Sequence record: NC_049819.1
Direction: 5' to 3' (one strand)
Length of the DNA: 50,732 bases
From: Escherichia phage atuna
A program made the position numbers and the translations under genes. Numbering within the stretch: the stretch's first letter is position 1; each line of letters starts with the position of its first letter. Under the pieces are notes generated by a model. That model made no database searches and was not told the DNA's origin. It worked only from the letters and a program-made list of their open reading frames with translations. Positions 7,477 through 42,510 of this stretch are shown in pieces.

Positions 7477-9687
7477 ATGGCGATTTACAGACAAGGCCAA
7501 GCGTCTATGGACGCTCAAGGTTATGTAACTGGTTACGACACAAAATGGCGCGAGCAATTAACATTGATTCGCCCAGGTGCAACTATTTTCTTTCTTACTC
7601 AACCTTTGCAAGCTGCCGTGATCACAGAGGTGATTAGCGATACAAGCATTCGCGCAATTACTACTGGCGGCGCGGTAGTCCAGAAGACAAATTACCTGAT
7701 CTTGCTTCATGACTCGTTAACGGTTGACGGGCTTGCGCAGGATGTAGCGGAAACTTTGCGTTATTACCAGAGCAAGGAAACAGAAATTGCAGAAGCAATA
7801 GAGTTTTTTAAAGATTTTGATTTGGATGGCTTAAAGGATCTGGTGAATCAAGTTAAGGAATCTGCGCAACAAGTAGCAACAGATCGCGCAGCCACTGAAC
7901 AATTAAAAAATGACACTCAACAGATAAAGGATTCTGCTGTTGCTGAAACAAACCAGATTAAAGCAGACACTGACGCGATCAAAACTCAAACGCAACAGAT
8001 TAAAGATTCAGCTGTAACCGAAACTGAAGCCATTAAACAAGAGGCTTTCGGTGCTCGCGATCAGGCTGAACTGGCGCGTGATGCTGCTGGAAATCATGCC
8101 GTTGATGCAAATAATGCAAAGGCTGGCGCTGAAACTGCGCGTGATGAAGCTCGCCAGTGGGCGCAACAGGTAAATCCTGAAAATCTATTGCATAAGGATC
8201 AGAACCTTAAAGATCTTTCTGACATTGATGAAGCTCGCAGTACTCTTAGCATTGATTCATTTTTTCAGGATTACGTGCATACTATCTTGTACTCTAGAAA
8301 TAGAGAATATAGGCTCGTTATCAGAAATGATGGTCTTCTTGTTTTCCAGAGGGATGTATCAGGGTCTGGGTCATTTGAAACTGTTCCTTTAGCTATTTCT
8401 TCTGGTGGCACTGGAGCTATTGACGCAAATGGCATCAGAAACAATATAGGACTTGGCGAAAAACATGCACCAAAGTTTTTGAGTCTTAATGTTGAAAACG
8501 AAACGGAAAATGCAACTACTGCAAACGCAGGTATATACCATTCAAAACTAAAGAATACACAAGGTGAAGATATTGGATCTTCTCAGTCTTATTTTGAAAC
8601 TCAAGTAGGCGTAGGAAAGCATACAATAGGCGTATTTCATAATGGGGCATCACAGTATTATCAGTTTAATGAAAATGGTGCTTTTTCAGGAGCGAAAAGC
8701 ATTTCCTTAGCTCCTGGGGCTGGTATTTATGTAGATGGGAATGAGCGAAATGCGTCGCAATTGTTTTCAATTCCAAGTCCACCAATCAACACATGGACTG
8801 GTGTAAGTCGTTACAACTGGTATGACGATTACGCTATCGCTGGTTTAATCAGAAGAGGAGATACACACGTTGAATCTTTTGGAATAGAATTGTATCAAGC
8901 AGGGATACAGTCCTATATGCACAAGTTTTACCCTGACGGCAAAACGCATTCTGCTCAATACACCGGAAGAACTCAACAAATGGGGTGGGACGATCCAAAT
9001 TATTGGGGTAATGCTCTTGTTTGGGGTGAGGTTGTAACCAATAATGATGGCGGCTGGAGTCCTGGGTTATCTTGGGCTACACAATCAACTGGTGGATACC
9101 CGATTCGTGCAACTTGGGGTCTTATCGCACAAGGTAATAATGCATGGCCACTTTGTTCTCTAAGGCTTCGTGGTGATGGTGGTTTTTTCTGCAATTTCCA
9201 GTTTAATCCGGCATCAAACGATATAACTACATGGTCATCAAGTGGAAATTTCATTTTCCAAAAGGCAGCTAACTCTGACAGGGATTTAAAGCACGATATA
9301 ATTTATACAGATGGAAAAGAAAGCTATGATCGCGTTATGCAGTGGCTGCCTACCATGTTTAAATACAATGGAAGCAACATCCAGCGATTCGGGATGATAG
9401 CTCAGGATCTGTTAAAAATAGATCCTGAATATGTAAAGCTAATACCTGGAGGGGACATTTTTGCAGATGTTATAGGCGTTAATGATGAAGGTGAAGAATA
9501 TGTGGATCGTCAGATTGTGGTTGACAAAGCAGATGATACACTAGCTCTTGACAATAACGTTATCATGGCTGATATGGCTTGCGCTATGGTCTACATGGGA
9601 AACAAAATTGAGAAAATGGAGAAAGAGATAGAGGATCTAAAAAAAGCGGTAGCGAAATTAATAAACAATCCAACAGATACAGAATAA
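7477..9687 (+). CDS. Tail fibre protein with C-terminal intramolecular chaperone (peptidase S74-like) domain
   Basis: ATG 7477 after AGGAGG; C-terminal [30 protein letters not shown]...[13 protein letters not shown] resembles self-cleaving chaperone domain of T5-type fibres; coiled-coil ending. Confidence 0.75.
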
Positions 9688-13051: not shown

Positions 13052-13666
13052 ATGTACGGGATGAGTATAAAAAAATCAGACGGATCGTTATGGTTAAGTC
13101 CAGATTTCACTCCAGTTAATCTAATTGATCGGGCCGTAATATCTGCTAATACCGGAACCGTTTTTACTTCGTCAATTCCTGTTGATAGGGTATGTTTTTT
13201 CTTTGTTAGATTGACTGCTAAATCATACATATCATTTACGCAATTTAACAATGGTGGAAGGCACGCAATAAGAATTGATAGATCTGATAATCAAGGGGAG
13301 GTTATTGTTTATGCTTTTAGTAACATGGTGACTCCTCCAGGTAGTCACGGCATAGCGTTTTATAACGCTCATGGTGAAATGGTTTATCATGGAAAAATGA
13401 GGCCGCTTGATGCAAAGCAAGTTGGTGTGAGCGGGATCGCGTTTGATGTTAACCTGGGCTACCCTTGCGCAATAATGCCATCACTAACAGCGTTAAACTC
13501 TGTACCTAATCCGGCTTTAGGTGGATTTATGATTTTTGAGTCTCAAGCTGCCGCGTATGGTAACGGGATCTACTCTTTTTCTAGGCAGGTTGCACAAACC
13601 CCTGGACCTGTTGGTATTTACACCGCTTCATCTGTTTTGGTTATAAATGCATCACACTATGATTAA
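13052..13666 (+). CDS. Hypothetical protein (about 204 aa)
   Basis: ORF; ATG 13052 chosen over TTG 13040. Confidence 0.4.
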   Translation: MYGMSIKKSDGSLWLSPDFTPVNLIDRAVISANTGTVFTSSIPVDRVCFFFVRLTAKSYISFTQFNNGGRHAIRIDRSDNQGEVIVYAFSNMVTPPGSHGIAFYNAHGEMVYHGKMRPLDAKQVGVSGIAFDVNLGYPCAIMPSLTALNSVPNPALGGFMIFESQAAAYGNGIYSFSRQVAQTPGPVGIYTASSVLVINASHYD

Positions 13667-13669
13667 AAT

Positions 13670-13696
13670 TAAAGGGGGCTACGCCCCCTTTTTTTT
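13670..13696. terminator. Bidirectional terminator between convergent genes
   Basis: gggggctacgccccc stem followed by T8 on plus and T/A-rich run on minus. Confidence 0.75.
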
Positions 13697-16600
13697 ACCA
13701 GATTCCGGTAATCCTTCCGACTTCAACCCTCAATACTCCGTTTGCATCTTTTACCTTCAATCCTTCGTTGGTGAATTTAGTAGCTCCCTCTCCTGGAGTT
13801 GAACCGTAGTTTTCAAATGTTCCGTTTTTATCAAGCCTCCAACCTTGCTGATTTTGAACAAAATTGTTTGACTGAATAAAGTTTCCAATCATGGCATTAG
13901 TTATTGAACCATCTTTCACAAGTAAGCTATTGATGAAAACCTGGTTATTCTCAACCACGAAAGGAAGCGTATATGCCCCGCCGCTAGAACTTGTCATGAT
14001 CGCGAATCTGTTAGCGTCAAACAGAATCTGTGATATTAATCCTTGCGGTGATTGCGTTAACTGCATAACCATTCCGGCGCTGTACTGCTGACCGTTATAG
14101 GTTAGGCCCAGCTTCATTGAATATTGAGCACCAACGGAATCAACGCCAGCCCATGAATCAAGTTTTTCAGTAAGTGCCGACTCAAGATCACCAAACTTTG
14201 CCGTTAATGCAGTATCGGCAGAAACGCGCGCCTCTGTTTCGCTTGCAATCGCTTCCTCAACTCTCGTTAACTGCCCCTGTATATCATCACCAATCTGTGA
14301 TTTTAATTCCTCTATAGCTGTTGCTCGCGTTTCTGATTCTGTTGCGATCGCCTGATCAAGTCTTGTTACTTCGCTAGTTATCTCCTCATCAAATTCTGCT
14401 TTTAATTGCGTTAACGCTATCACCCTTGCTTCTGTTTCATCAGCAATCATCTGTATAGATTGCCTAAATTCAGCTTTCCGTTTCCCATTCTCCTTTTTCA
14501 TAACTCTAACATCAGAATCATTTGCCAAAGCGTTCTGAATGATTGATTGCGCCTGGTCTTTGATTTTGTTGGCGCTGTCTATGGCGTTCTCTTTGATTTC
14601 TTGACCAGCTTCGGTATCAAAAATCTTGTCCAGAATGTCGCCTAAAACAGAATCAACATCATCTGACGCCATGCCGCGAACAAAGTCAGTCCAGCCGGAA
14701 ACATTGCCGATCCTGTCAACGCTACGGATTCTATACCATACAACTTGCCCCGCTGGTAACGTGCCATGCCAATACTCATATTGAGGATACGGGATCAGCG
14801 TAAGCAAACTTGAGTTTTCCACCGTTCCATCTGGCGATTGGTGAAGCTCGATGTAAGCCGTATCTCCTGACCCTTCCGGCATACCCCATTTGACACGAAT
14901 GCCAAAAACTTCATTATCAGAAGCTGTAAGATTAATCGGCGCTCCTGGCTCGCCAACTTTACCTGTCAGGGTTGCGGTTGCAATCTTTGACCACGGGGAA
15001 GTGTTACCGCTTGCAGAAACAGATCTAACCCTTACTTGGTAGTTACCAGAATAAATTCCTTCTACCTCTATCTCTTTGTTAGCTGTCTGCGGCGTATTCA
15101 GCCAGTTGCCATCACCTTTTCGCCATTGCATTTCATACAGTGACGCATAAGGCACTTTATCCCACGACACAACCATAGTCTCAACGCTGACACCCTGCAC
15201 GACGCGAGAATAAGATGAGATTTGCACGTTCTCAGGAGCTGCCATTACGTCAGGCTGAACAATTGAAGTCGGCCTGTCATCAATGTTTACTCCATAATCA
15301 ATCTCGTCGTATTTGTTCGGATCGTACTCTACAGCCGTTATTGAATAGGTAAACTCATTTTCGTCATCACCCTTGCTGATAGTTGTCACAACGTATTGCT
15401 GCAACGCAAGGTCAGTACGGTCAATCGCAAAAACAGTATCAGGCTTAACATCAAAACCAAATCCAATATTTAACTCAATGGTTTTTCCGTCTGCGCTCAC
15501 CTTTGAGATCGTTCGCTTAACTGGCTTGCCGTCCGGCTTGTTGATGATAATAAAATCACCAGGACGAGCATCAACCTTAAACGGAACGAAAACCTGCAAT
15601 CCTGAAACTTCCATCACTCGGCCCGATAGGTTTAACGTTAGGTTGCTGCTCTGAAAATTATCAGCGATAGCAATCACATCACCTATTGATGGAATCATCC
15701 CCTCCAGTCCAGTAGCAAAGTTTACAGTAGTGCTTCTAAGGTTTGTTTTCAAAACCCACCGACCGCGACGATTCGCCTCGCTCCTGCGTGTACACCCGAT
15801 CGCTGTAATGCTTGTTGGATTGTATCCAAATCGTAATGCCGCCTCAGTATCAAAAACCCCCTCTACGTCCTGTTGATACATGTTTTGTTCGTCGTCAAAC
15901 GTCACGTTACACTGCGTGTACATGCTTTTTTCGCTTGCGGTTGTGTACTGAAAATCACCGTTGATGACGTTTTCATTAGTAAACACGTATGATGGATCGC
16001 GCGGCTTATCAATCACGATTGATAAGCTCTCACCATTCCAAAAGCTCATTCCGCGAAAGATTGAGCAAATGTCACGGATTAGCTGATAAGCCTCAACCTG
16101 ATTCTGGATCACCACATCGCATAGGTAGCGAGGCTCTGTACCGCCCTTACCGTCTGGAACTTTCTGATCACAGTAAACGCCTGCCTCGTATAAGCTCCAC
16201 TTGTCGATCTGTATTCCTAACTCTCGCTGGTCAAGTCCATAACGCTGATTCGTCACCAGATCATAAAGAACCCATGCAGGATTATTTGACCACGCTTTTT
16301 TAAAAGTCCCATCCCATGACCCGTGATATTCTCTTGATATTGGATCGTAGTTGCTTGGCACATTAATAATCTTCCATTTCTTTTTTATAGAAATGTTAGG
16401 GATTTGTGTAGGAAACAATTCGCTGTCAAATTCTACAAATACAAGGCCAGTCAGAGGATAACGGAATTTTGCATCCACAACCTCAGCGTAACTTTGCAGT
16501 TTGATTTTATCAGTCACCTTTGAAGATGTGCTATCTGGAGTCAGTCGCTTGACTCTGATTAAAACGCGCTCCTCAAACTTAGGAAGATCAATCCTTCTGC

Positions 16601-17120
16601 TGCGGTCATATCCTGATCTTGTCTTGCCATCAATTACATCTCTCATAACCTCGTTATAAGAACCGCCATCAACAGCCATATCTACGGCATATTGAACCCT
16701 TACACCAACAAGATCGCCGTTATCCTCCTGTTTTATGCCAACTGGCATCAGAATCTTGATTCTGATTGCAGAAAGATTTTTATTTGTTACAGAGATAATA
16801 TAGGGATTGTCTGTTGTAATATCTCGCGAAACTGTCACCTCGCTTGATGTGTCAGTAAACCCCTGGATGTAATCTTGCGTCTGTGTGCCTGGCCTATATT
16901 CAGCCGTTACCCCCTCATAGTTAACAGTGCCATCGCTGGCAATAACCGGAACATCATCAAGATAAAGATCACGCAACGTGAAATCTGGATCGCACTCGCC
17001 ATCAGATACAGCCAGCAAAACTTTAATCTTGTTTATCGAGATCAGGTTATCTTCCATCTCTTTTGGCACGTATGGCTTTTTGCTTCCGCCCTTACTGCCG
17101 CTTATCATATATTTAGCCAT
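13695..17120 (-). CDS. Central tail fibre / host-specificity protein (lambda J-like)
   Basis: 1141-aa protein downstream of I-like gene; start at Met MAKYMISG with upstream AAGG; size and position typical of J. Confidence 0.75.
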   Translation of the reverse strand: MAKYMISGSKGGSKKPYVPKEMEDNLISINKIKVLLAVSDGECDPDFTLRDLYLDDVPVIASDGTVNYEGVTAEYRPGTQTQDYIQGFTDTSSEVTVSRDITTDNPYIISVTNKNLSAIRIKILMPVGIKQEDNGDLVGVRVQYAVDMAVDGGSYNEVMRDVIDGKTRSGYDRSRRIDLPKFEERVLIRVKRLTPDSTSSKVTDKIKLQSYAEVVDAKFRYPLTGLVFVEFDSELFPTQIPNISIKKKWKIINVPSNYDPISREYHGSWDGTFKKAWSNNPAWVLYDLVTNQRYGLDQRELGIQIDKWSLYEAGVYCDQKVPDGKGGTEPRYLCDVVIQNQVEAYQLIRDICSIFRGMSFWNGESLSIVIDKPRDPSYVFTNENVINGDFQYTTASEKSMYTQCNVTFDDEQNMYQQDVEGVFDTEAALRFGYNPTSITAIGCTRRSEANRRGRWVLKTNLRSTTVNFATGLEGMIPSIGDVIAIADNFQSSNLTLNLSGRVMEVSGLQVFVPFKVDARPGDFIIINKPDGKPVKRTISKVSADGKTIELNIGFGFDVKPDTVFAIDRTDLALQQYVVTTISKGDDENEFTYSITAVEYDPNKYDEIDYGVNIDDRPTSIVQPDVMAAPENVQISSYSRVVQGVSVETMVVSWDKVPYASLYEMQWRKGDGNWLNTPQTANKEIEVEGIYSGNYQVRVRSVSASGNTSPWSKIATATLTGKVGEPGAPINLTASDNEVFGIRVKWGMPEGSGDTAYIELHQSPDGTVENSSLLTLIPYPQYEYWHGTLPAGQVVWYRIRSVDRIGNVSGWTDFVRGMASDDVDSVLGDILDKIFDTEAGQEIKENAIDSANKIKDQAQSIIQNALANDSDVRVMKKENGKRKAEFRQSIQMIADETEARVIALTQLKAEFDEEITSEVTRLDQAIATESETRATAIEELKSQIGDDIQGQLTRVEEAIASETEARVSADTALTAKFGDLESALTEKLDSWAGVDSVGAQYSMKLGLTYNGQQYSAGMVMQLTQSPQGLISQILFDANRFAIMTSSSGGAYTLPFVVENNQVFINSLLVKDGSITNAMIGNFIQSNNFVQNQQGWRLDKNGTFENYGSTPGEGATKFTNEGLKVKDANGVLRVEVGRITGIW

Positions 17121-17168
17121 GACTTTTAACCTTTTGTGCTGTTTCTTGGTTTGCACATTATAAATGCA

Positions 17169-17193
17169 CAAAAAAACCAGCGCAATGCTGGTT
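17169..17193 (-). terminator. Hairpin + T8 between HNH endonuclease gene and J-like gene
   Basis: accagcattgcgctggt followed by TTTTTTTT on minus strand. Confidence 0.5.
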
Positions 17194-17197
17194 AAAT

Positions 17198-17674
17198 CTA
17201 CTTTCCGTGGTTTATGTGGAATTTGTTTAAAACTTCAATCTCTATCCTCTTTTCTGCCGCATCCTGAAATGAATCAAAGTAAAATTCATGCCTAACACCA
17301 TCAATCTTTGCTCTTGCAATCCATTTTCCGCGACTAAAGTTTACTCCAGTAATTCCCGTCTTGCTGTTCCTGTAAAGCGACTTATTCTTGTTGTTAACAC
17401 TCATTCTAACAAGTCTTAAGTTTGAAATATTGTCGTTCATTGTGTTGTGATCTATGTGATCAACTTGCATTCCATGCGGTATTTCTCCATTATGAATTTC
17501 CCAAACTATCCTGCTCCTGTAGTATCTTTCTCCATCAATTGATATTCTAACCCTTTCTCCACTCTTCTTGCTTTTGCTTACGCTTCCTGCCTCACTTCCT
17601 TTCTTTATCCTTCTTCCTACGTCTACAGCCCAAAATAACTTACCGTCATTATAATAAAAAATATCACGCCACAT
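17198..17674 (-). CDS. HNH homing endonuclease with AP2 DNA-binding domain
   Basis: HIDHNTMNDNISNLRLV (HNH) and GITGVNFSRGKWIARAKIDGVRHEFYFDSFQDAAEKR (AP2-like); ATG 17674 after AAGGAGGTG. Confidence 0.8.
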   Translation of the reverse strand: MWRDIFYYNDGKLFWAVDVGRRIKKGSEAGSVSKSKKSGERVRISIDGERYYRSRIVWEIHNGEIPHGMQVDHIDHNTMNDNISNLRLVRMSVNNKNKSLYRNSKTGITGVNFSRGKWIARAKIDGVRHEFYFDSFQDAAEKRIEIEVLNKFHINHGK

Positions 17675-17717
17675 GATCACCTCCTTAATTAATTGTAAAG
17701 CGAAAATCCGTTTTCGC

Positions 17718-17737
17718 TTTAACATATTGTGCTATTT
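17718..17737 (-). promoter_or_regulatory. Degenerate motif copy (AATAGCACAATATGTTAAA) + hairpin immediately upstream of HNH gene
   Basis: Motif with TTTTT replaced by AATAT, followed by aaagcgaaaacggattttcgcttt hairpin and SD. Confidence 0.45.
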
Positions 17738-18332
17738 ATGCTTTGTCCTCTGCGTAGCTGCCAGCCGACCAGATCGCGCCGCCTACTGTCCTATATCCAT
17801 ATGGCAAAGGAACCGGATAGCCTGCCGCCGTGGTATTTACTGCGCCGCCGAAAGCGTAAGAAGGCTTGTTTTCTGCTGATTGGCTTTGCAGTTTCATTCC
17901 GCCCTGCTGCGGCGAAATCATTTGCATGACACCCCCAAGCGCGATAGCACCACCCATCATAAATGCGGAAGATGCAAAAGCGCCCATAGCCGCAAGGCTT
18001 GCACCACCAGTAATGAACGCAGTAGCCATAATTACAGCGCCAAAAACAACATTGAACAGGCCGCCGGACTTAGAACCAGTTGGAACGGGAATTATTCTAA
18101 CCTCTCGCGCGCACTTCCATGATTTTTCATCATGCTGACCAATGTTTTTACCGTCAACGAATATAGCATACTTCATGCGCGATCCAACTTCGCTTTGCAT
18201 GTAGTCTTTGAACCCTTCAACCTGGGAAGATAACGCGCGTATTGCTTCGGGGTATGAGTCAACCGCCATTTTGTGAAAGACGCCAAATCTACGCCCCAGG
18301 GAACCAGATAGCTTAATTACTTTCAATGTCAT
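17736..18332 (-). CDS. Tail assembly protein (lambda I-like)
   Basis: 198 aa, Gly/Ala-rich hydrophobic C-terminal half; position between K-like and J-like genes. Confidence 0.6.
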   Translation of the reverse strand: MTLKVIKLSGSLGRRFGVFHKMAVDSYPEAIRALSSQVEGFKDYMQSEVGSRMKYAIFVDGKNIGQHDEKSWKCAREVRIIPVPTGSKSGGLFNVVFGAVIMATAFITGGASLAAMGAFASSAFMMGGAIALGGVMQMISPQQGGMKLQSQSAENKPSYAFGGAVNTTAAGYPVPLPYGYRTVGGAIWSAGSYAEDKA

Positions 18333-19044
18333 ATTTCAGATCCTTATGTCGGCAAATTTTTACAGTGTGCTCCTGATACCATCCAGAATACAAGTCAATG
18401 CGAGATAGCTTTCCAAACGCATGATGTAATAGCTGGTTGTTTCCCAAATATATACCCGCATGATTCCAGACTGGCGATGATAGTTGCATGATAACCATAT
18501 CGCCAGGCTTTGGAGGCTCGTTAGTTTCAATAAATCCCTCTTTTAAATAATTATCCTGGTAAAGATTTTCACCATATTCTGACTTCCACCACTCGTAAGG
18601 CTTTCGGAAGTCATTCAATACTACTCCGTGCTGTTTATGCCACGCCATGATAAGACCCCAGCAATCGAACGACCCAAGCGACCACGGGCGACCGATAAGC
18701 GGCCTCTCCTGCGGCTCGACAATTCTCATATCACCTTCGGGCCATGACACTATAATCCACGACACACCCATTTCATCGCACATACATGAGTCGTGCGCGC
18801 TCGGTATCGTGCTAGCACCATCCCCGCAATGGGAATGCACCACCGCGATTAATTCGCCTTTGTCGAGCGATTCAGCGTATTCTACAGCGTCCATTTCAAA
18901 ATGATTTTCTGGATCGTCATGCACGTTGGTTATGCGGTGATATTTCTGTACCCGTGACTTTTGAGTTATGACGCCGCAAGCCTCTTTAGGGTATTCCTCT
19001 TTAACGTGCTGCATTATTTCAAGTTTAATTTTTGCACTAATCAT
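18313..19044 (-). CDS. Tail assembly protein (lambda K-like; JAB/MPN + NlpC/P60 domains)
   Basis: HSHCGDGAST...SAHD metal-site-like motif and Cys/His/His NlpC/P60 triad (CWGLIMAWH, HAGIYLG, HHAF); start ATG 19044 after GGAGGA overlapping L stop. Confidence 0.8.
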   Translation of the reverse strand: MISAKIKLEIMQHVKEEYPKEACGVITQKSRVQKYHRITNVHDDPENHFEMDAVEYAESLDKGELIAVVHSHCGDGASTIPSAHDSCMCDEMGVSWIIVSWPEGDMRIVEPQERPLIGRPWSLGSFDCWGLIMAWHKQHGVVLNDFRKPYEWWKSEYGENLYQDNYLKEGFIETNEPPKPGDMVIMQLSSPVWNHAGIYLGNNQLLHHAFGKLSRIDLYSGWYQEHTVKICRHKDLKYDIESN

Positions 19045-19805
19045 TATTGATTCCTCCGTAGCAGTGAAGCAACAGCGCAACCGCCGAAATCCAATTCGTT
19101 TTGCTGACCGAACCTCAATTTGCAAGCCGTTACAGTTCCGGCGCAATAGTCTTGTGATGGATCTGTTACTGGCTTATTGTCTTTATCGAACATTGCCGAT
19201 CCGTTATAAGAGCAACCCTTTCCGCTCCTGTACCACCCCCTTTGCGCCCAATAGCAAACGCTTTGAGTGATGCGCGGCGGGATCATTAATCCATCCATAT
19301 CGTAAGGCGATGTCAGATCAAATTTCGCCACCTCTCTATTATACTGGCTTGGGCGCTCAATGTAATAAACCAATTTTCTGTAAGCGCCATCTTTGATTGC
19401 TCCGCCTTCTCCTATAAATTCATTTGCCGTAATCCAGAAAGTCACCTTTGCTTGCATCATGCCATTGTAATTTCTGATCATGGCGCTAACCCTGCTGTCA
19501 AGGTTTGACACTATAAGCTGAGGCTTATCTGCCCTGCCGTTACTTGTGAAGTTAATCCCGCTCACACCGAAAGGCCGCGCTCCGTAAACCTCACCCTGGA
19601 AAATAATATCTTTCGGCGGCAAGATTCCGGTTTGCTGCGCTTGCATTAATTCTTCGGCAGTATAAGAGATATTCTCATTGTGAAATCGGTAAATATTTGC
19701 CCCGAACTTCGTCCCGTCAATCTCTACAAGCGTTATAATTTCTCCTGGGTACAAACTTTGTAGGCAGTTCTCAAATTCAACTCTACCTGATTCTTTATTA
19801 GCCAT
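19044..19805 (-). CDS. Minor tail protein (lambda L-like)
   Basis: 253 aa; synteny M-L-K-I-J. Confidence 0.65.
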   Translation of the reverse strand: MANKESGRVEFENCLQSLYPGEIITLVEIDGTKFGANIYRFHNENISYTAEELMQAQQTGILPPKDIIFQGEVYGARPFGVSGINFTSNGRADKPQLIVSNLDSRVSAMIRNYNGMMQAKVTFWITANEFIGEGGAIKDGAYRKLVYYIERPSQYNREVAKFDLTSPYDMDGLMIPPRITQSVCYWAQRGWYRSGKGCSYNGSAMFDKDNKPVTDPSQDYCAGTVTACKLRFGQQNELDFGGCAVASLLRRNQ

Positions 19806-19867: not shown

Positions 19868-20224
19868 TTACTGCATTGATGTAAATTGCTCCGTAAAAGT
19901 GGCTTTTACTTCCTGAACGGTTGGCGACAGTGGAGTAAGGCCGACGCTGCCGCTTTTCACCCTGAACAATCCAGGGCTTCCATCAGGCATGATCCACAAG
20001 AAAGGTTTTAGCCTGTGCTCATTCAGGAAATTGACAACATCTCTGTAGTCAAGCCCAACGTAAACAATGCTAAACTCTCGCCGGATTGTGTTAAAACCTC
20101 CAGATGCTACCTGTGTGTATCCGTTACCGAATGCAATCTCTCGATCGTTATTCGATGACGTCATGGCCCCGCCGCCATTCTGAACCTGCGTACACCACTT
20201 AAACTGATCCAGCTTCATTATCAA
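19868..20224 (-). CDS. Minor tail protein (lambda M-like)
   Basis: 118 aa, start overlaps tape-measure stop (ATGA). Confidence 0.55.
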   Translation of the reverse strand: MIMKLDQFKWCTQVQNGGGAMTSSNNDREIAFGNGYTQVASGGFNTIRREFSIVYVGLDYRDVVNFLNEHRLKPFLWIMPDGSPGLFRVKSGSVGLTPLSPTVQEVKATFTEQFTSMQ

Positions 20225-29868: not shown

Positions 29869-30624
29869 TTAACTGTTCCAATCTGGTATGGCCCAACAAC
29901 GACAACCGAAAGGCTCACCAGGAAAATCATGTTCAGAATCTAGCGCAATGCGCTTACCTTCCCATTGTACATGCTGCAATCGTTCTCTGTCATCAAGCAT
30001 ACCATGCCAAAAATAATGAGTTACTTTTGCATCATAAAGACGCTGGCGCATAAGCCTACTATTCCAAGCGCCTATGATATTTTCAGCCCTTGTCTTACCC
30101 CAAGAGCTATACACTGCGAACCTCTTACCAGCCAATTCATTAACCTGACTATCTCTCATTCCGCGAAAGTTTGCCGATCTGATATTGGTTGACCAGTCAG
30201 ACACGATGTTTCCAAATAGCTTTTGAAGAGATGCGATCGTCATGTCATGCCATTGACCGTATAGCGTCCTATACCAACTCTCATTCGCATTGGCCCCAAT
30301 AGCCATAAGGATGATAACGGCGGAATTTGACTTACCTCCCGTTGATTTCGCTACGTTAATAAATTGCTTTGCGTTGAATTTATAAACAGCAAGGCCGATA
30401 GCCGGAAGTGATGCGGCGATGCCAGCTATTAGCTTTAACGCGAAGCTACTAATCTCATCCTCTGCGGCGTTGATTTCTTCGGTGTCCGCGTCAAATTTCA
30501 TTTCCTTTGTTTTGCTGCGCATCAGCACAACAAGATCCCTTATCGCCTCCTGAATTGAGCGGCGCAATTGCCGCTCGCTTGCTTCAGGAAAGCGCCATTG
30601 TTTAACGACGCCTTTCACTATCAT
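29869..30624 (-). CDS. Head morphogenesis protein (Mu F / SPP1 gp7-like, positional)
   Basis: 251-aa ORF immediately downstream of portal, start overlapping. Confidence 0.5.
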   Translation of the reverse strand: MIVKGVVKQWRFPEASERQLRRSIQEAIRDLVVLMRSKTKEMKFDADTEEINAAEDEISSFALKLIAGIAASLPAIGLAVYKFNAKQFINVAKSTGGKSNSAVIILMAIGANANESWYRTLYGQWHDMTIASLQKLFGNIVSDWSTNIRSANFRGMRDSQVNELAGKRFAVYSSWGKTRAENIIGAWNSRLMRQRLYDAKVTHYFWHGMLDDRERLQHVQWEGKRIALDSEHDFPGEPFGCRCWAIPDWNS

Positions 30625-31919
30625 TGATTGCTACCCTCGGTTGTTCCTGGCTCCGGCTCTACGTCCTGCTCAGGTAATTTAATGTTATTGCCGTCTTTTA
30701 GTTTAACGTTAGGCGCAATGGCTCGCAATGTGTCGCGCGCCTCCTCTGTATCCATGAATTGACCGTCAATAGCCTTGCTCAAAGAATCAATATTCTTGTT
30801 CAAGATCTCGGCCTGGTCCTTTTCGCTTGGAACGCTTAACGGCGCAAACTGAATACTCCATTCTTCCTCTTGAATCAGGAACGGGATCAGAAATTCAAGG
30901 ATTGGTTTGTATTCTTCCTTTCGCTTTCGGTCGATCAGCTTGTAGAAGGTTTCAAGCGCCGTGTTTTGGCTCGCGCTAACACCGCCAACGTTCTTGTTTT
31001 TGAGGATGATTTCATGGATGCCGGAAAGAGATACAATGCGATCCATCTTCTTTTCCAAGAACGAATCGACGGCAGAAATATCAGAATTTAAAACATCATA
31101 TTCCTCATCTTCCGCATCAATGCCGATCGCACGGCCTACGCCACCCTCATCATCAACTTGAGCAAGTCGCAAACGTGCGGCACTAACACCATCATCATCA
31201 TCACAAAGATCAGCAAGACCTTTAACTTTCCATACCGCCTGTTGCTTACGTCGCAACAATTGAGTTGCTAAGTTTTCGCAGTAGTTATAATCACAAATAG
31301 CCTCAACAAGTCGCTTATTCAGGATCGACTCACCCCACCCATCATTTGATTGACGCCGCTGATTCGGTAGCCGCTCACCGTCGATGATACAGACTCGCGA
31401 ATAGTGAACCTGGTATTCTGGCAAGTCGGCACCAGGTGCAATGGTGTAAATTAATGGCTCACCATATCGTACCTTGCGTGGATTAGTTTCTCGCTTTTCT
31501 ACGCGAACCTGAAAGCGATCGTAAACGCGAACATCTTCAAGGATTGCACCAGGCGCTACAGGTGACTTTAACGACCTGCCATCCTGAACGATTGCCACGA
31601 TTGCCGCGCCACCAAAAAGACGCGACCAGCAAAGCGCATCAATGATTTTATCGTTTAGTCGCTTCTCATCCCACAAAGATCTAAAACTCTCCTCATCTTC
31701 CACGCCATCAATATTAAATCCAGGTGTCACCATTTCTTCTGGAACAACGTCGATAATTCGTTTTGCTAGGCCGTCGCGAATGTAAAAATCAGCGTGCGTG
31801 GTGTATTCGAACCCTTGCATAAAGAAAGGCAACTCCACACGCCCATTGCCATTGCTACCCTTGAAAATCTCGTTGTATCCATCGGCCTTAACTAGCCTTG
31901 TTTTTTCACTCATCGTCAA
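30621..31919 (-). CDS. Portal protein
   Basis: 432 aa, acidic C-terminus, position after terminase large subunit. Confidence 0.7.
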   Translation of the reverse strand: MTMSEKTRLVKADGYNEIFKGSNGNGRVELPFFMQGFEYTTHADFYIRDGLAKRIIDVVPEEMVTPGFNIDGVEDEESFRSLWDEKRLNDKIIDALCWSRLFGGAAIVAIVQDGRSLKSPVAPGAILEDVRVYDRFQVRVEKRETNPRKVRYGEPLIYTIAPGADLPEYQVHYSRVCIIDGERLPNQRRQSNDGWGESILNKRLVEAICDYNYCENLATQLLRRKQQAVWKVKGLADLCDDDDGVSAARLRLAQVDDEGGVGRAIGIDAEDEEYDVLNSDISAVDSFLEKKMDRIVSLSGIHEIILKNKNVGGVSASQNTALETFYKLIDRKRKEEYKPILEFLIPFLIQEEEWSIQFAPLSVPSEKDQAEILNKNIDSLSKAIDGQFMDTEEARDTLRAIAPNVKLKDGNNIKLPEQDVEPEPGTTEGSNQ

Positions 31920-31970: not shown

Positions 31971-31990
31971 TTTAGCAATTAGTGCTATTT
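31971..31990 (-). promoter_or_regulatory. Motif variant (AATAGCACTAATTGCTAAAA) + TATAAT + hairpin/T-run upstream of portal gene
   Basis: Minus-strand reading: variant motif, TATATAAT, hairpin aaggctggatttttccagcctt, T7, ATTATGGAG, ATG. Confidence 0.5.
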
Positions 31991-33553
31991 ATTGCGTAGA
32001 CCTGCCAGCTTTTTCATCCTTGCCACCGGATCATCTGCCAAATTCATTTCGACGTTAACAGCATCAACTATATTATCGACAATATCATCATGGGGATGAG
32101 AATCATCAAAAGTGAATGCTGCAACCTCTGCCAGTATCTCAGGCAGCATGGGGTGATTTTCTGGCAGTGCCACACGTCCGGCCCTCATCACTGGCGCGGC
32201 GTCCATTGCTCGCGTTACCTTGTCATTGCTTCGCTGAACGGGATTTATATCAATCGGGATCTTCTTTTTGGCCCCCTGAATTAAACCCGTGCCGCTGGCC
32301 TTGTCCTCAATGTGGATACGTCGCAAGCTGCCACACTCCTTATTGCGCTTCCAGCACTGGTTAACGAAGGCAATAAAATTTAATTCAAGATCCGGCGCTT
32401 CCCACTTTCCGCGAATGCCATCAATGAAGTAAACGCGATTCTTATACATCCCCCAATAACAAAAAACTGAATAGTCGTTAAGCTCTCCGGCCTTCTGTGC
32501 GGTATCTCCAGTGATAAATGTGTATTCAAAGCGATCCGGTTTAGGAAGTGCGCATTTTTCGCCGCTGCCGTAATACTGGAACCACTCTGTTTTAAACACG
32601 TTCCCGCCCAGCGCGATTGGTTGCTGTTGGTATTGGCTGGCGAACGTGTAAGGATCTGCATTGCGCAATGCAAGCAATTCCTCCGCGCTTTCCTTTGCAG
32701 GCCAAAATGAATAATGAGCAACGCCATCTATCATCACTGGCTTACTTGATAGCACATCACGATCAAATTCAGGCTTCAACCAATCAGGAAGCGTTTCGCG
32801 GTATTCTTTCGTAACCAGCGCCGGAATGCTCACGACTTTAAACTCAATACCACCCATCCCGCCATTAAGCATGAACCAAGTGGAATCATTAACGTGTAGT
32901 CGCTGTTGCACCATAACAATTGGCGTGGTGTCTTTCATTCGACGCGATCGCACTGTGTTTTTTAACCGCATGTGAATAGCCTCGCGCTTGACCTTAGAAA
33001 GCATATCATCCGGCTTGTCTGGATCGTCAAGAACCAGCATACCAGTAAAACCATCGTCCATATAGCCGCCACGCAAACCTGTTACCTGGCCGCCAATAGA
33101 TCGTGAGTTAACTTGCAATTTAACCTTGCCGCCTTCGGTGACTATCAGATCTTTAGCGCTCGCCTTTGCCAGTTTTCCAGGCCATAGCTCTTGCCACTCA
33201 GGAGAACCAATAATCTCCTTTATCCTGTTGCTGTTTTGCTGGACAAGGCCATCACTAAACGAAAGGTTAAGGTTTCTCACCTTCCGGCTTTTCAATGACG
33301 CGTAGGGTGACATGTGGATCGAGAAAATCTCAGTCTTACCGCTACCTGGCGTAATGTTGAAAATCACATTCTGCGACTCTCCATTGATGATCTTCTCTAC
33401 CTCACTGCACAATAAGCTAAAATGCCAGTTGCTCTGGAATTTTTGCCCCTGTAATAGTTGGAACCAGATCCTGATCATCTTTTCGAATGAATGCTCACTG
33501 ATTTCTTTAATGGCTCGCTTTTGCGCCGCCGTCAAATCTTCCCATATGATCAT
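31985..33553 (-). CDS. Terminase large subunit
   Basis: 522 aa; Walker A-like PGSGKT; position after small subunit. Confidence 0.75.
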   Translation of the reverse strand: MIIWEDLTAAQKRAIKEISEHSFEKMIRIWFQLLQGQKFQSNWHFSLLCSEVEKIINGESQNVIFNITPGSGKTEIFSIHMSPYASLKSRKVRNLNLSFSDGLVQQNSNRIKEIIGSPEWQELWPGKLAKASAKDLIVTEGGKVKLQVNSRSIGGQVTGLRGGYMDDGFTGMLVLDDPDKPDDMLSKVKREAIHMRLKNTVRSRRMKDTTPIVMVQQRLHVNDSTWFMLNGGMGGIEFKVVSIPALVTKEYRETLPDWLKPEFDRDVLSSKPVMIDGVAHYSFWPAKESAEELLALRNADPYTFASQYQQQPIALGGNVFKTEWFQYYGSGEKCALPKPDRFEYTFITGDTAQKAGELNDYSVFCYWGMYKNRVYFIDGIRGKWEAPDLELNFIAFVNQCWKRNKECGSLRRIHIEDKASGTGLIQGAKKKIPIDINPVQRSNDKVTRAMDAAPVMRAGRVALPENHPMLPEILAEVAAFTFDDSHPHDDIVDNIVDAVNVEMNLADDPVARMKKLAGLRNK

Positions 33554-41685: not shown

Positions 41686-42146
41686 TGTTCATCCTCCAGG
41701 AAAGTTTTTTTGATCATCGCGTGAAAGTCAGCGACGGCCTTTGATAATGTTTCATACTCTTCCGGCGCATAGTTTGCCAGGTTTGGCGACATATCAATGA
41801 TCGCCTCTGCAACCTTGCGCTTAGCCTGGCGCACCGCCCTTTCCAGTGCCTCTTTGTTGTAAACCTTGCGACGGCCTTCAACAATCCGCACCTCGTAGAA
41901 AGTGCTACCGAAGTTTTCATCTTCCGGCCCGTAAACGCCACGGGTAACGGATACGCGCCCCCGCTCGGCGACTTCTGGCACTCGACTCATGATCTGGCGA
42001 ATGTAGGCCGCCGGATTGCTTGCCGACTTCTTGCCGAACATGTGGACCTGCAAATACGCGTCAGGAATCTTGATCGTCTCTTCCTCGCCATTAGCCAGCA
42101 TAATAGCGGCACGGCGCAGCGTGTCAGTGAATGATTGCTCGCTCAT
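41682..42146 (-). CDS. Hypothetical early protein (154 aa)
   Basis: Start at ATG (MSEQSF) after CAGGAGGTAG; first gene of leftward early arm. Confidence 0.5.
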   Translation of the reverse strand: MSEQSFTDTLRRAAIMLANGEEETIKIPDAYLQVHMFGKKSASNPAAYIRQIMSRVPEVAERGRVSVTRGVYGPEDENFGSTFYEVRIVEGRRKVYNKEALERAVRQAKRKVAEAIIDMSPNLANYAPEEYETLSKAVADFHAMIKKTFLEDEQ

Positions 42147-42174
42147 TTCTACCTCCTGGTTGTTAGGTGTGGGC

Positions 42175-42203
42175 ATTATCAATAATGCTATTTAATGTGT
42201 CAA
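42175..42203 (-). promoter_or_regulatory. Sigma70-type promoter (TTGACA-N17-GATAAT) for leftward early arm
   Basis: Exact TTGACA, 17-nt spacer, GATAAT on minus strand about 30 nt upstream of SD of gene 41682-42146. Confidence 0.6.
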
Positions 42204-42510
42204 CTGTTTTTTCTTGTTCCCGCGTGTTTTATCAATTTTACATGGTGGCACAATAACAATATAGGCGTTATTTTTCCTTATAAATCAATGTTATCATTGC
42301 CTGTTATCTAAGTTTTCTCGCGGAAAGTGCCATATAGATATATATACCCCTACATACCCATACACACATACAGATACACAAAAACTATATACCCCCACCA
42401 AATACCACAATAACCAAGATAACAAAAGAGAATATATAGATACATATAAATAAATAATCCTTATTTTTCAATGTATTATATAGGTATTGTTTGTTATTTT
42501 TTGTTATCGT
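42196..42510. repeat. A+C-rich strand-skewed low-complexity element, copy B (homologous to 12141-12350, with about 100-bp extra segment)
   Basis: Shared blocks with copy A; sits in the 640-bp non-coding region between divergent early arms. Confidence 0.6.

What the first reader, a model, noticed from the sequence alone, without database searches (positions are those of the whole stretch)
17161..17737. HNH-AP2 homing endonuclease inserted between tail genes I and J, flanked by its own terminator and a degenerate promoter motif
The endonuclease gene (HNH motif HIDHNTMNDN plus AP2 DNA-binding domain) interrupts the otherwise lambda-like M-L-K-I-J tail block. It has the strongest SD in the region (AAGGAGGTG), a degenerate copy of the 20-bp motif upstream and a hairpin/T8 downstream, consistent with a self-contained mobile cassette.
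Basis: partly seen in the sequence, partly recalled or inferred. Interest (0 to 1): 0.5.

Follow-up and report, generated by a model that had tools for sequence, protein, structure and literature searches.

The report
Selfish nuclease gene between phage tail genes
A small selfish nuclease gene (an HNH-AP2 homing endonuclease) sits between two tail genes of this T1-like E. coli phage. It is present in some close relatives and cleanly absent from most, so it is real and mobile, but it is an ordinary, already-annotated kind of phage element.

Summary
On the minus strand, a 158-aa ORF (17198-17674) lies between lambda-like tail genes I (17736-18332) and J (13695-17120) of a Warwickvirus (Drexlerviridae) genome.

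- **Protein:** it is an HNH_3 nuclease. Its C-terminal AP2 domain shows up only by fold and family profile, not by single-sequence Pfam.
- **Presence/absence:** ten database records (seven distinct phages) carry the same insert. Two phages carry a copy with a 323-bp deletion. About 58 records have an empty site.
- **Divergence:** insert copies differ by 1-3 of 564 nt, while the flanks differ by 2-10%. The window's closest flank relatives lack the insert.
- **Linked changes:** only five substitutions in 8 kb separate occupied from empty genomes. All lie within 21 bp of the insert.

It is the resident I-J terminator, also present in phage T1, in a cassette-linked allele with a compensatory stem change. 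The T-run is T7, not T8. The upstream motif copy, hairpin, TACAAT and 13-nt Shine-Dalgarno do lie inside the insert.

Best reading: a free-standing homing endonuclease cassette that spreads by intronless homing. Cleavage itself is untested. The identical protein is already annotated in GenBank, so interest is low.

The parts
17198..17674 (-). HNH-AP2 endonuclease ORF, 158 aa. The N-terminal beta domain plus HNH (HNN-type) core cover about aa 1-102. The AP2-like domain covers about aa 108-150.
17675..17687 (-). Shine-Dalgarno TAAGGAGGTGATC, directly abutting the ATG at 17674.
   Evidence: Perfect 13-nt complement of the 16S rRNA 3' end and the longest match among the tail genes. It is mutated to AAGGATGTG in the decayed copies of tonn and ityhuna, and also in mar001J1.
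17692..17697 (-). TACAAT, a -10-like hexamer 21 nt after the motif.
   Evidence: The spacing from motif to hexamer (20-21 nt) matches the other copies in the window. Function is inferred, not shown.
17697..17720 (-). Perfect 10-bp inverted repeat AAAGCGAAAA-cgga-TTTTCGCTTT, between the motif and the -10-like hexamer.
   Evidence: Sequence. RNA fold -11.8 kcal/mol, z -2.4. It is AU-rich and has no T-run, so it is a poor terminator.
17719..17735 (-). Degenerate copy (14 of 17) of the family-wide promoter-associated motif ATAGCACTTTTTGTTAA. It begins right after the stop codon of gene I and forms the left end of the inserted DNA.
   Evidence: 20 copies against 0.28 expected. It is absent from empty sites.
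17736..17748 (-). Last codons and stop of tail gene I, carrying two cassette-linked synonymous substitutions at 17745 and 17748 (GAGGAC in occupied genomes, GAAGAT in empty ones).
   Evidence: Fixed differences. Alignment. No empty-site record carries them.
17170..17193 (-). Resident I-J intrinsic terminator (stem 17175-17193, seven T's at 17170-17176) in a cassette-linked allele. Positions 17189 and 17179 form a compensatory pair and 17186 is a loop base.
   Evidence: Terminator scan. It is homologous to the terminator of empty-site phages and of T1. Fixed differences.
17157..17162 (-). TATAAT hexamer upstream of J. It is present in occupied and empty genomes and in T1, and is not part of the cassette.
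17736..18332 (-). Tail assembly gene I (upstream flank).
   Evidence: Pfam Lambda_tail_I, E 1.3e-20.
13695..17120 (-). Tail tip gene J (downstream flank), ATG at 17120.
   Evidence: Pfam FNIII-A_GpJ, Phage-tail_3 and Phage_Tail_Tip.

Best explanation
This is a free-standing (intergenic, intron-less) HNH-AP2 homing endonuclease gene cassette lodged in the 6-nt spacer between the stop codon of tail gene I and the resident I-J terminator of a Warwickvirus.

**Shown**
- The inserted DNA adds a net 537 bp.
- It brings a copy of the phage family's promoter-type module (motif, hairpin, TACAAT), a perfect Shine-Dalgarno and the ORF.
- It reuses the resident terminator. The I - terminator - TATAAT - J layout is therefore kept, and the insertion should cost the phage little.

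**Inferred mechanism**
1. In a mixed infection the enzyme recognises the empty I-J junction of a related phage. The N-terminal beta domain and HNH core are I-HmuI-like. The AP2 domain probably reads the GC-rich terminator stem ACCCGCC, which resembles the plant AP2 GCC box.
2. The enzyme nicks or cuts there.
3. Recombinational repair from the occupied genome copies in the cassette plus a few flanking bases.
4. The five linked substitutions are either co-converted donor markers or self-immunity changes. Two are synonymous changes in gene I. Three are in the terminator, two of them a compensatory pair that preserves the stem.
For: - **Polymorphism:** 10 records are occupied, 3 records hold a remnant and dozens are empty at the same site.
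- **Divergence:** the insert differs by 1-3 of 564 nt among 7 phages. Their flanks differ by 2-10%.
- **Flank phylogeny:** the window's nearest flank relatives are empty-site phages (tonnikala 0.50%, B1.2 1.92%). Phunderstruck (occupied) and JLBYU16 (empty) differ by 0.08% over 2.6 kb of J.
- **Fixed differences:** only 5 in 8 kb, all within 21 bp of the insert. No empty-site record carries any of them.
- **Composition:** GC is 36.5% in the insert and 44.6% in the window.
- **Intact enzyme:** HNH_3 catalytic residues are present and the fold is I-HmuI-like plus AP2.
- **Decayed copies:** tonn and ityhuna have a 323-bp frameshifting deletion between GGAAGCG and GGATGCG, plus an SD mutation.
- **Homologues elsewhere:** they occupy unrelated intergenic positions in other phages. 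A 38%-identical homologue in T1 has the same motif-hairpin-(-10)-SD layout at another locus.
- **Not an intron:** no ribozyme or other Rfam family is found.
- **Literature:** HNH/HNN-AP2 free-standing homing endonuclease genes and intronless homing are established (PMC2248197, PMC10448857, PMC2988022).
Against: - No cleavage or inheritance data exist for this protein.
- The linked flanking tract is very short (13 bp or less on the I side, 21 bp or less on the J side). Linkage is gone by about 85 bp. This is shorter than many co-conversion tracts described for T4 free-standing endonucleases.
- These phages are highly mosaic anyway. Ordinary recombination could move a neutral insertion.
- The recognition-site proposal (AP2 reading the terminator stem) rests only on sequence resemblance.
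- The promoter role of the motif and TACAAT is not demonstrated.
Confidence: 0.75

Rival explanations
1. It is a passive accessory insertion. The gene is a foreign ORF, active or not, that entered once and is now shuffled among Warwickviruses only by the ordinary homologous recombination that makes these genomes mosaic. There is no nuclease-driven drive.
For: The flanks are strongly mosaic, with nearest neighbours differing on the two sides. Linkage to flanking markers is lost within about 85 bp. The occupied state is the minority: 13 of about 71 records.
Against: The catalytic residues are intact, and the protein is identical in six of the seven database phages and in the window; only mar001J1 has G48V. 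The family is the classic free-standing homing endonuclease family (PMC2248197, PMC10448857). The five tightly linked substitutions include a structure-preserving compensatory pair in the terminator, as expected for a protected target. A decayed copy coexisting with intact ones fits the homing endonuclease life cycle.
Confidence: 0.15
2. It is a domesticated nuclease that benefits the phage, for example by excluding competing phages, by countering host defence, or as a packaging-associated HNH like HK97 gp74. On this reading it is not a purely selfish element.
For: Some HNH nucleases with the architecture of homing endonucleases have phage functions (discussed in PMC10448857). Cutting competitors at the I-J junction would amount to marker exclusion next to the host-range gene J (PMC2988022).
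Against: The gene is absent from most close relatives and decayed in two, so it is dispensable. It is not next to a terminase; the large ORF at 31985-33553 and the head genes are about 14 kb away. Marker exclusion is in any case a by-product of homing, not a separate mechanism.
Confidence: 0.07
3. It is an ancestral gene of the tail block that has been lost by precise deletion in most lineages, with no insertion and no mobility.
For: Presence/absence alone cannot give direction. A microhomology-mediated internal deletion does occur in tonn and ityhuna.
Against: The empty junction, including the exact terminator sequence, is shared with phage T1 in a different subfamily. The insert is far less diverged than its flanks and has lower GC. 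All empty sites share one identical junction rather than a set of different deletion scars.
Confidence: 0.03

Closest known systems
HNH(HNN)-AP2 free-standing homing endonuclease genes of phages. Examples are the Xanthomonas phage Xp10/OP1/Xop411 group I genes (PMC2248197), the IPA-HNH genes of ICP1 (PMC10448857), and the family first noted by Magnani et al. 2004 (cited from memory via PMC10448857 ref 45).
   Same: N-terminal HNN-type HNH_3 core (DH...N...N, no Cys dyads) plus a C-terminal AP2 domain. About 160 aa. Intergenic, scattered through phage genomes, with intact and decayed copies side by side.
   Different: Only 30-42% identical to any other phage homologue. This lineage is confined to one site, the I-J junction of Warwickviruses. 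None of these relatives has been tested biochemically as far as I could find.
I-HmuI (PDB 1u3e), the intron-encoded HNH nicking endonuclease of Bacillus phage SPO1.
   Different: I-HmuI is intron-encoded and ends in a helix-turn-helix domain. This protein is free-standing and ends in an AP2 domain. Whether it nicks or makes a double-strand cut is unknown.
T4 free-standing endonucleases (the seg and mob genes) and intronless homing (PMC2988022, PMC2790892).
   Same: An intergenic endonuclease gene with a presence/absence polymorphism between related phages, and flanking markers linked to the gene.
   Different: T4 seg/mob enzymes often cut hundreds of bp from their insertion site and drag long co-conversion tracts. 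Here the linked tract is 21 bp or less, more like an intron-type target that the insertion itself disrupts.
Phage T1 'homing endonuclease' gene at MN153797.1 42014-42496.
   Same: A full-length homologue (38% identity, E 8e-31). It sits behind the same arrangement: upstream stop codon TAA, motif, GC hairpin, -10-like hexamer, SD.
   Different: It lies at a different locus, between a phosphoesterase gene and the holin gene, and it is a different lineage.
PeSL promoter/stem-loop cassettes of T4-like phages (PMC2839356, PMC4122927).
   Same: Short repeated promoter-plus-stem-loop units that bound small variable genes. The left end of this insert coincides exactly with such a repeat.
   Different: There is no sequence relationship. 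Only one motif copy flanks the gene. No evidence here shows that the motif mediates recombination.

Membership tests
HNH endonuclease, Pfam HNH_3 (PF13392) / beta-beta-alpha-Me nucleases | Sequence match above the curated cut-off. | tested here: met
   57.5 bits against a cut-off of 24.8, E 1e-15, aa 51-95.
HNH endonuclease, Pfam HNH_3 (PF13392) / beta-beta-alpha-Me nucleases | Catalytic Asp-His and the conserved Asn residues are present. | tested here: met
   D72, H73, N85 and N94 are invariant in the 21-sequence alignment.
HNH endonuclease, Pfam HNH_3 (PF13392) / beta-beta-alpha-Me nucleases | Fold resembles a solved HNH homing endonuclease. | tested here: met
HNH endonuclease, Pfam HNH_3 (PF13392) / beta-beta-alpha-Me nucleases | Metal-dependent DNA cleavage. 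| not testable with these tools
   Needs purified protein.
AP2 DNA-binding domain (PF00847) | Pfam match of this protein. | tested here: not met
   No PF00847 hit even at E<=10, for the full protein or for the C-terminal 63 aa.
AP2 DNA-binding domain (PF00847) | Family-level sequence relationship to AP2 domains. | tested here: met
   Eight of 21 aligned family members hit PF00847, best E 2.6e-6. The family profile hits the WRI1 AP2 at E 1.8e-5 and the TEM1 AP2 at E 0.01.
AP2 DNA-binding domain (PF00847) | Three-stranded antiparallel sheet packed on one helix. | tested here: met
Free-standing homing endonuclease gene (intronless homing) | Presence/absence at one fixed site among closely related genomes. 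| tested here: met
Free-standing homing endonuclease gene (intronless homing) | History of the insert is decoupled from the flanks (lower divergence, incongruent neighbours). | tested here: met
Free-standing homing endonuclease gene (intronless homing) | Flanking markers co-inherited with the gene. | tested here: met
   Five fixed substitutions within 21 bp, with perfect association in 13 occupied and about 58 empty records. There is no longer tract.
Free-standing homing endonuclease gene (intronless homing) | Not inside an intron or intein. | tested here: met
   It is intergenic. I and J are intact on both sides. There is no Rfam hit in the window.
Free-standing homing endonuclease gene (intronless homing) | Site-specific cleavage of the empty allele and nuclease-dependent over-inheritance in mixed infection. 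| not testable with these tools
   Needs cleavage assays and phage crosses.
Packaging-associated HNH (HK97 gp74 type) | Encoded next to the terminase/cos region and conserved in relatives. | tested here: not met
   It lies in the tail block, about 14 kb from the head/terminase region. It is absent from most relatives.
Group I intron-encoded endonuclease | ORF embedded in a self-splicing intron that interrupts a gene. | tested here: not met
   The insert lies after the stop codon of I and before the terminator. No intron model matches.

The most novel reading that the evidence does not exclude
The cassette may be a self-expressing module whose left boundary is exactly the Drexlerviridae-wide 'motif - variable hairpin - -10' unit. 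On this reading such units act, like the PeSLs of T4-type phages, both as an unusual promoter class and as the junction points at which endonuclease cassettes and other small genes are swapped between loci and phages.

The unit is unusual in two ways:
- The motif-to-hexamer spacing is 20-23 nt, too long for a standard sigma-70 -35/-10.
- The hairpin is conserved in structure but not in sequence.

On the same reading, the cassette-linked terminator allele would be a self-immunity allele. It would abolish AP2 recognition of the GCC-box-like stem (ACCCGCC changed to ACCAGCA) while a compensatory change keeps the terminator working.
Probability: 0.15. Interest if true: 0.45.

Novelty: already known. 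Interest (0 to 1): 0.15.

Why it matters
It matters little beyond housekeeping. The element is an ordinary selfish gene, and the identical protein is already annotated as 'HNH endonuclease' in GenBank relatives (JLBYU01, JLBYU10, mar001J1, Phunderstruck, Kalemo).

Its modest value is practical:
- The Warwickvirus I-J junction is a clean natural system for testing an uncharacterised HNH-AP2 enzyme. There is a near-isogenic occupied/empty pair (Phunderstruck and JLBYU16), a defined 40-bp candidate target, five candidate immunity substitutions and a natural decayed allele.
- It sits beside J, the host-range gene. Any nuclease-stimulated recombination there could influence exchange of receptor-binding modules.
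- Anyone building phylogenies or engineering these phages should treat 17179-17748 as horizontally moving DNA.

Tried and rejected
- **Single-sequence AP2 detection:** Pfam at E<=10, NCBIfam and phmmer against PDB found nothing. Profile and fold methods were needed.
- **IMG/VR scans for the junctions:** the occupied junction gave 0 hits. The 18-mer for the empty junction gave 16 mostly unrelated A-rich hits. This was uninformative, so I used the GenBank phage collection instead.
- **Alternative 175-aa start (ATG 17725, used in the Phunderstruck and Kalemo annotations):** rejected. It has no SD, lies inside the motif and would put the hairpin in the coding sequence. ATG 17674 has the perfect SD and matches the N-termini of the homologues.
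- **Upstream hairpin as a terminator for gene I:** unlikely. It is AU-rich, has no T-run and was not called by the scan.
- **Paralogues in the window:** none.
- **Group I intron or another RNA family:** none.
- **Literature:** no paper was found on Warwickvirus HNH genes or on the motif string.
- **BEK12A's different 107-bp filler at the same junction:** its first 116 nt match nothing else. The rest is a junction of the type found in phages such as vojen and egaa, so this is a recombinant junction and not a second endonuclease.
- **Sigma-70 scan:** no standard promoter was found upstream of the gene. The promoter call rests only on analogy with the other motif copies.

Full report
**What is there**

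The window is a T1-like coliphage of the genus Warwickvirus (Drexlerviridae, Tempevirinae). A 2-kb query around the finding matches 104 phage records, the best at 96-98% identity (taxonomy).

The tail genes lie on the minus strand. Pfam identifies M (19868-20224), L (19044-19805), K (about 18313-19044), I (17736-18332) and J (13695-17120). Between I and J lies a 158-aa ORF at 17198-17674, with its ATG at 17674.

**The protein**

- It matches Pfam HNH_3 (57.5 bits, cut-off 24.8) and PHROG 99 'HNH endonuclease' (E 4e-49).
- D72-H73, N85 and N94 are invariant in an alignment with 20 homologues.
Other evidence shows it is real.
  - Eight of 21 family members hit PF00847.
  - The family profile hits I-HmuI (E 2.6e-10) and the AP2 domains of WRI1 (1.8e-5) and TEM1 (0.01).
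  - An AlphaFold model (pLDDT 84.9) ends in three strands and a helix.

**The signals around the gene**

- The Shine-Dalgarno is TAAGGAGGTGATC (17675-17687). It is a perfect 13-nt complement of the 16S rRNA 3' end and the strongest in the tail block.
- Upstream lie a 14-of-17 copy of a motif (ATAGCACTTTTTGTTAA), a perfect 10-bp hairpin and TACAAT. The motif occurs 20 times in the window against 0.28 expected.
- The motif-to-hexamer spacing of 21 nt matches the other copies.
- Downstream is a 7-bp GC hairpin with seven T's in all, not eight.

**Is it an insertion?**

Yes.

- Ten records (seven distinct phages: brachmannus, JLBYU01, JLBYU10, mar001J1, Phunderstruck, orkinos, Kalemo) carry the same DNA at the same place.
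- tonn and ityhuna carry it with a 323-bp internal deletion.
- Dozens of Warwickviruses have nothing there.
- In empty genomes the stop codon of I is followed by AAAAAT and then the terminator ACCCGCCTTGCGCGGGT(T7), TATAAT and J.
- In occupied genomes 543 nt replace that 6-nt spacer, a net gain of 537 bp.

**Is it mobile relative to the backbone?**

I aligned 8 kb from 17 relatives and compared the insert with its flanks.

- The insert differs from the window by 1-3 of 564 nt. The flanking genes differ by 2-10%.
- The window's closest relatives in the flanks are empty-site phages. tonnikala is 0.50% away over I-K-L-M and B1.2 is 1.92% away over the 5' 2.6 kb of J.
- Phunderstruck (occupied) and JLBYU16 (empty) differ by only 0.08% over that J segment.
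- The insert is also AT-richer (36.5% GC against 44.6%).
- Six of the seven database phages encode a protein identical to the window's; only mar001J1 differs (G48V).
- The decayed copies have a frameshifting deletion between the near-repeats GGAAGCG and GGATGCG, plus an SD mutation.

**What travels with it**

- Across the 8-kb alignment only five positions are fixed between the 10 occupied or remnant genomes and the 8 empty ones.
  - 17745 and 17748 are both synonymous and lie in the last codons of I.
  - 17189, 17186 and 17179 lie in the terminator.
- A chimeric query carrying the occupied-type bases on an empty junction found no contiguous match better than 94.9%, which equals five mismatches. 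All 13 occupied or remnant records matched the two halves at 95-100%.
- The association therefore holds over about 58 empty and 13 occupied records.
- Of the terminator changes, 17189 and 17179 are the two sides of one base pair (C-G to A-T). 17186 is a loop base, so the hairpin survives.
- Linkage is already partial 85 bp away and absent beyond that.

**Correction on the terminator**

The hairpin downstream of the gene is not a terminator the cassette brought along. The same element, AACCCGCCTTGCGCGGGT(T8) followed by TATAAT, sits after gene I in phage T1, which belongs to a different subfamily.

The cassette went in just upstream of the resident terminator. That keeps termination and the J-proximal TATAAT intact. 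The upstream hairpin is AU-rich and has no T-run, so read-through from I into the endonuclease gene is likely. This last point is inference.

**The left end**

- The inserted DNA starts exactly at the motif, directly after the TAA of I. Many other motif copies in the window also abut the stop codon of the preceding gene.
- Phage T1 has 13 copies of the motif.
- T1 also has a 38%-identical, full-length homologue of this protein at a different locus. It sits behind the same arrangement: TAA, motif, GC hairpin, TATTAT, SD, with the ATG 72 nt from the motif start.
- The promoter-gene layout is therefore a family habit, and this cassette probably derives from such a module.

**Wider family**

- tblastn finds homologues in 2653 phage records, all below 60% identity apart from this lineage.
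- Metagenomic relatives sit beside a DNA polymerase gene, between P22-type coat and tail genes, and among head-tail genes with other HNH_3 genes.
- The window has no paralogue.
- The literature already describes HNN-AP2 free-standing endonuclease genes that are scattered, gained and decayed in Xanthomonas phages (PMC2248197) and ICP1 (PMC10448857). The general mechanism of intronless homing is reviewed in PMC2988022.

**How it most likely works**

The shown facts are the insertion, its decoupled history, the intact catalytic core and the linked flank changes. The steps below are inferred.

1. During co-infection the enzyme binds the empty I-J junction and nicks or cuts it.
2. Repair from the occupied genome copies in the cassette with a few flanking bases.
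3. The GC-rich stem ACCCGCC is one base away from the plant AP2 GCC box AGCCGCC (recalled from memory). In the occupied allele it is changed to ACCAGCA. The terminator may therefore be the AP2 target and the linked allele a self-immunity allele. I rate that specific idea at no more than about 0.3.

Rival readings:
- Passive spread by ordinary recombination (0.15).
- A domesticated function that benefits the phage (0.07).
- An ancestral gene lost in most lineages (0.03). This one is contradicted by the T1 junction and the divergence contrast.

**Verdict**

The only errors are the 'own' terminator and T8. The element is a routine free-standing homing endonuclease gene, and the identical protein is already annotated in public Warwickvirus genomes. 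Interest is low.

The more curious object is the genome-wide motif-hairpin-(-10) unit, recorded under things noticed in passing.

Noticed in passing
window, 20 sites: 2321, 3392, 5881, 7443, 12429, 17719, 23591, 27344, 31972, 36190, 38985, 39356, 40949, 41412, 42743, 44047, 44774, 46973, 47647, 49809 (17 nt each): The motif ATAGCACTTTTTGTTAA occurs 20 times against 0.28 expected. Most copies have a fixed layout: upstream stop codon TAA, the motif, about 20-21 nt, a TATAAT-like hexamer, a leader of about 25 nt (often CATCGAAACGA), an SD, and an ATG 72-80 nt from the motif start. An inverted repeat lies between the motif and the hexamer, or brackets the hexamer. Its arm sequences differ from copy to copy, so structure is conserved but sequence is not. 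The TTGTTA-to-hexamer distance of 21-23 nt is too long for a normal sigma-70 -35/-10. Three copies (7443, 23591, 27344) point against the flanking genes. Phage T1 has 13 copies. There is no Rfam hit, and no paper was found with the motif string.
   Followed up: partly
window 31972-31988 (-), 17719-17735 (-); L044 (T1) 8362-8378: The copies with a scrambled T-tract are CTAATTG, CAATATG and CTAAATG. All lie in the late or structural region: before the ORF at 30621-31919 downstream of the large ORF 31985-33553, before the endonuclease gene in the tail block, and before the T1 small terminase gene. 'Degenerate' may therefore mean a late-region variant rather than decay.
   Followed up: no
window 13500-14500 (3' end of J, minus strand): The distal end of J comes in two very different alleles. 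The window, Kalemo and tonnikala share one, 8-16 differences per kb apart. The other 14 relatives differ from it by about 25% and a 155-nt indel. The pattern is independent of endonuclease occupancy, so this looks like a swapped receptor-binding module.
   Followed up: no
L003 (BEK12A, MN158210.1) 1122-1306: BEK12A and BEK26 carry a different, ORF-less filler of about 107 bp at the same I-stop/terminator position. Its first 116 nt match nothing else in the phage collection. The terminator and J leader that follow are of the type found in phages such as vojen and egaa. The junction seems to be a recurrent recombination point.
   Followed up: partly
L044 (T1, MN153797.1) 41942-42496: T1 carries a 38%-identical HNH-AP2 homologue behind the same motif-hairpin-hexamer-SD arrangement. 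It lies between a phosphoesterase gene and the holin gene.
   Followed up: partly
search results: Between 11 and 18 records labelled 'Campylobacter phage' (for example A123, A14b, A131; about 47-50 kb; host C. jejuni) match this enterobacterial Drexlerviridae tail region. The match reaches about 90% identity in the J leader. The host labels look doubtful.
   Followed up: no
L004 (vB_EcoS_XY3, MN781674.1) 1200-1923: In XY3, tail gene I is annotated as two overlapping CDSs, and the match comes in three pieces with about 127 extra bases. This is a possible frameshift or a small insertion within I.
   Followed up: no
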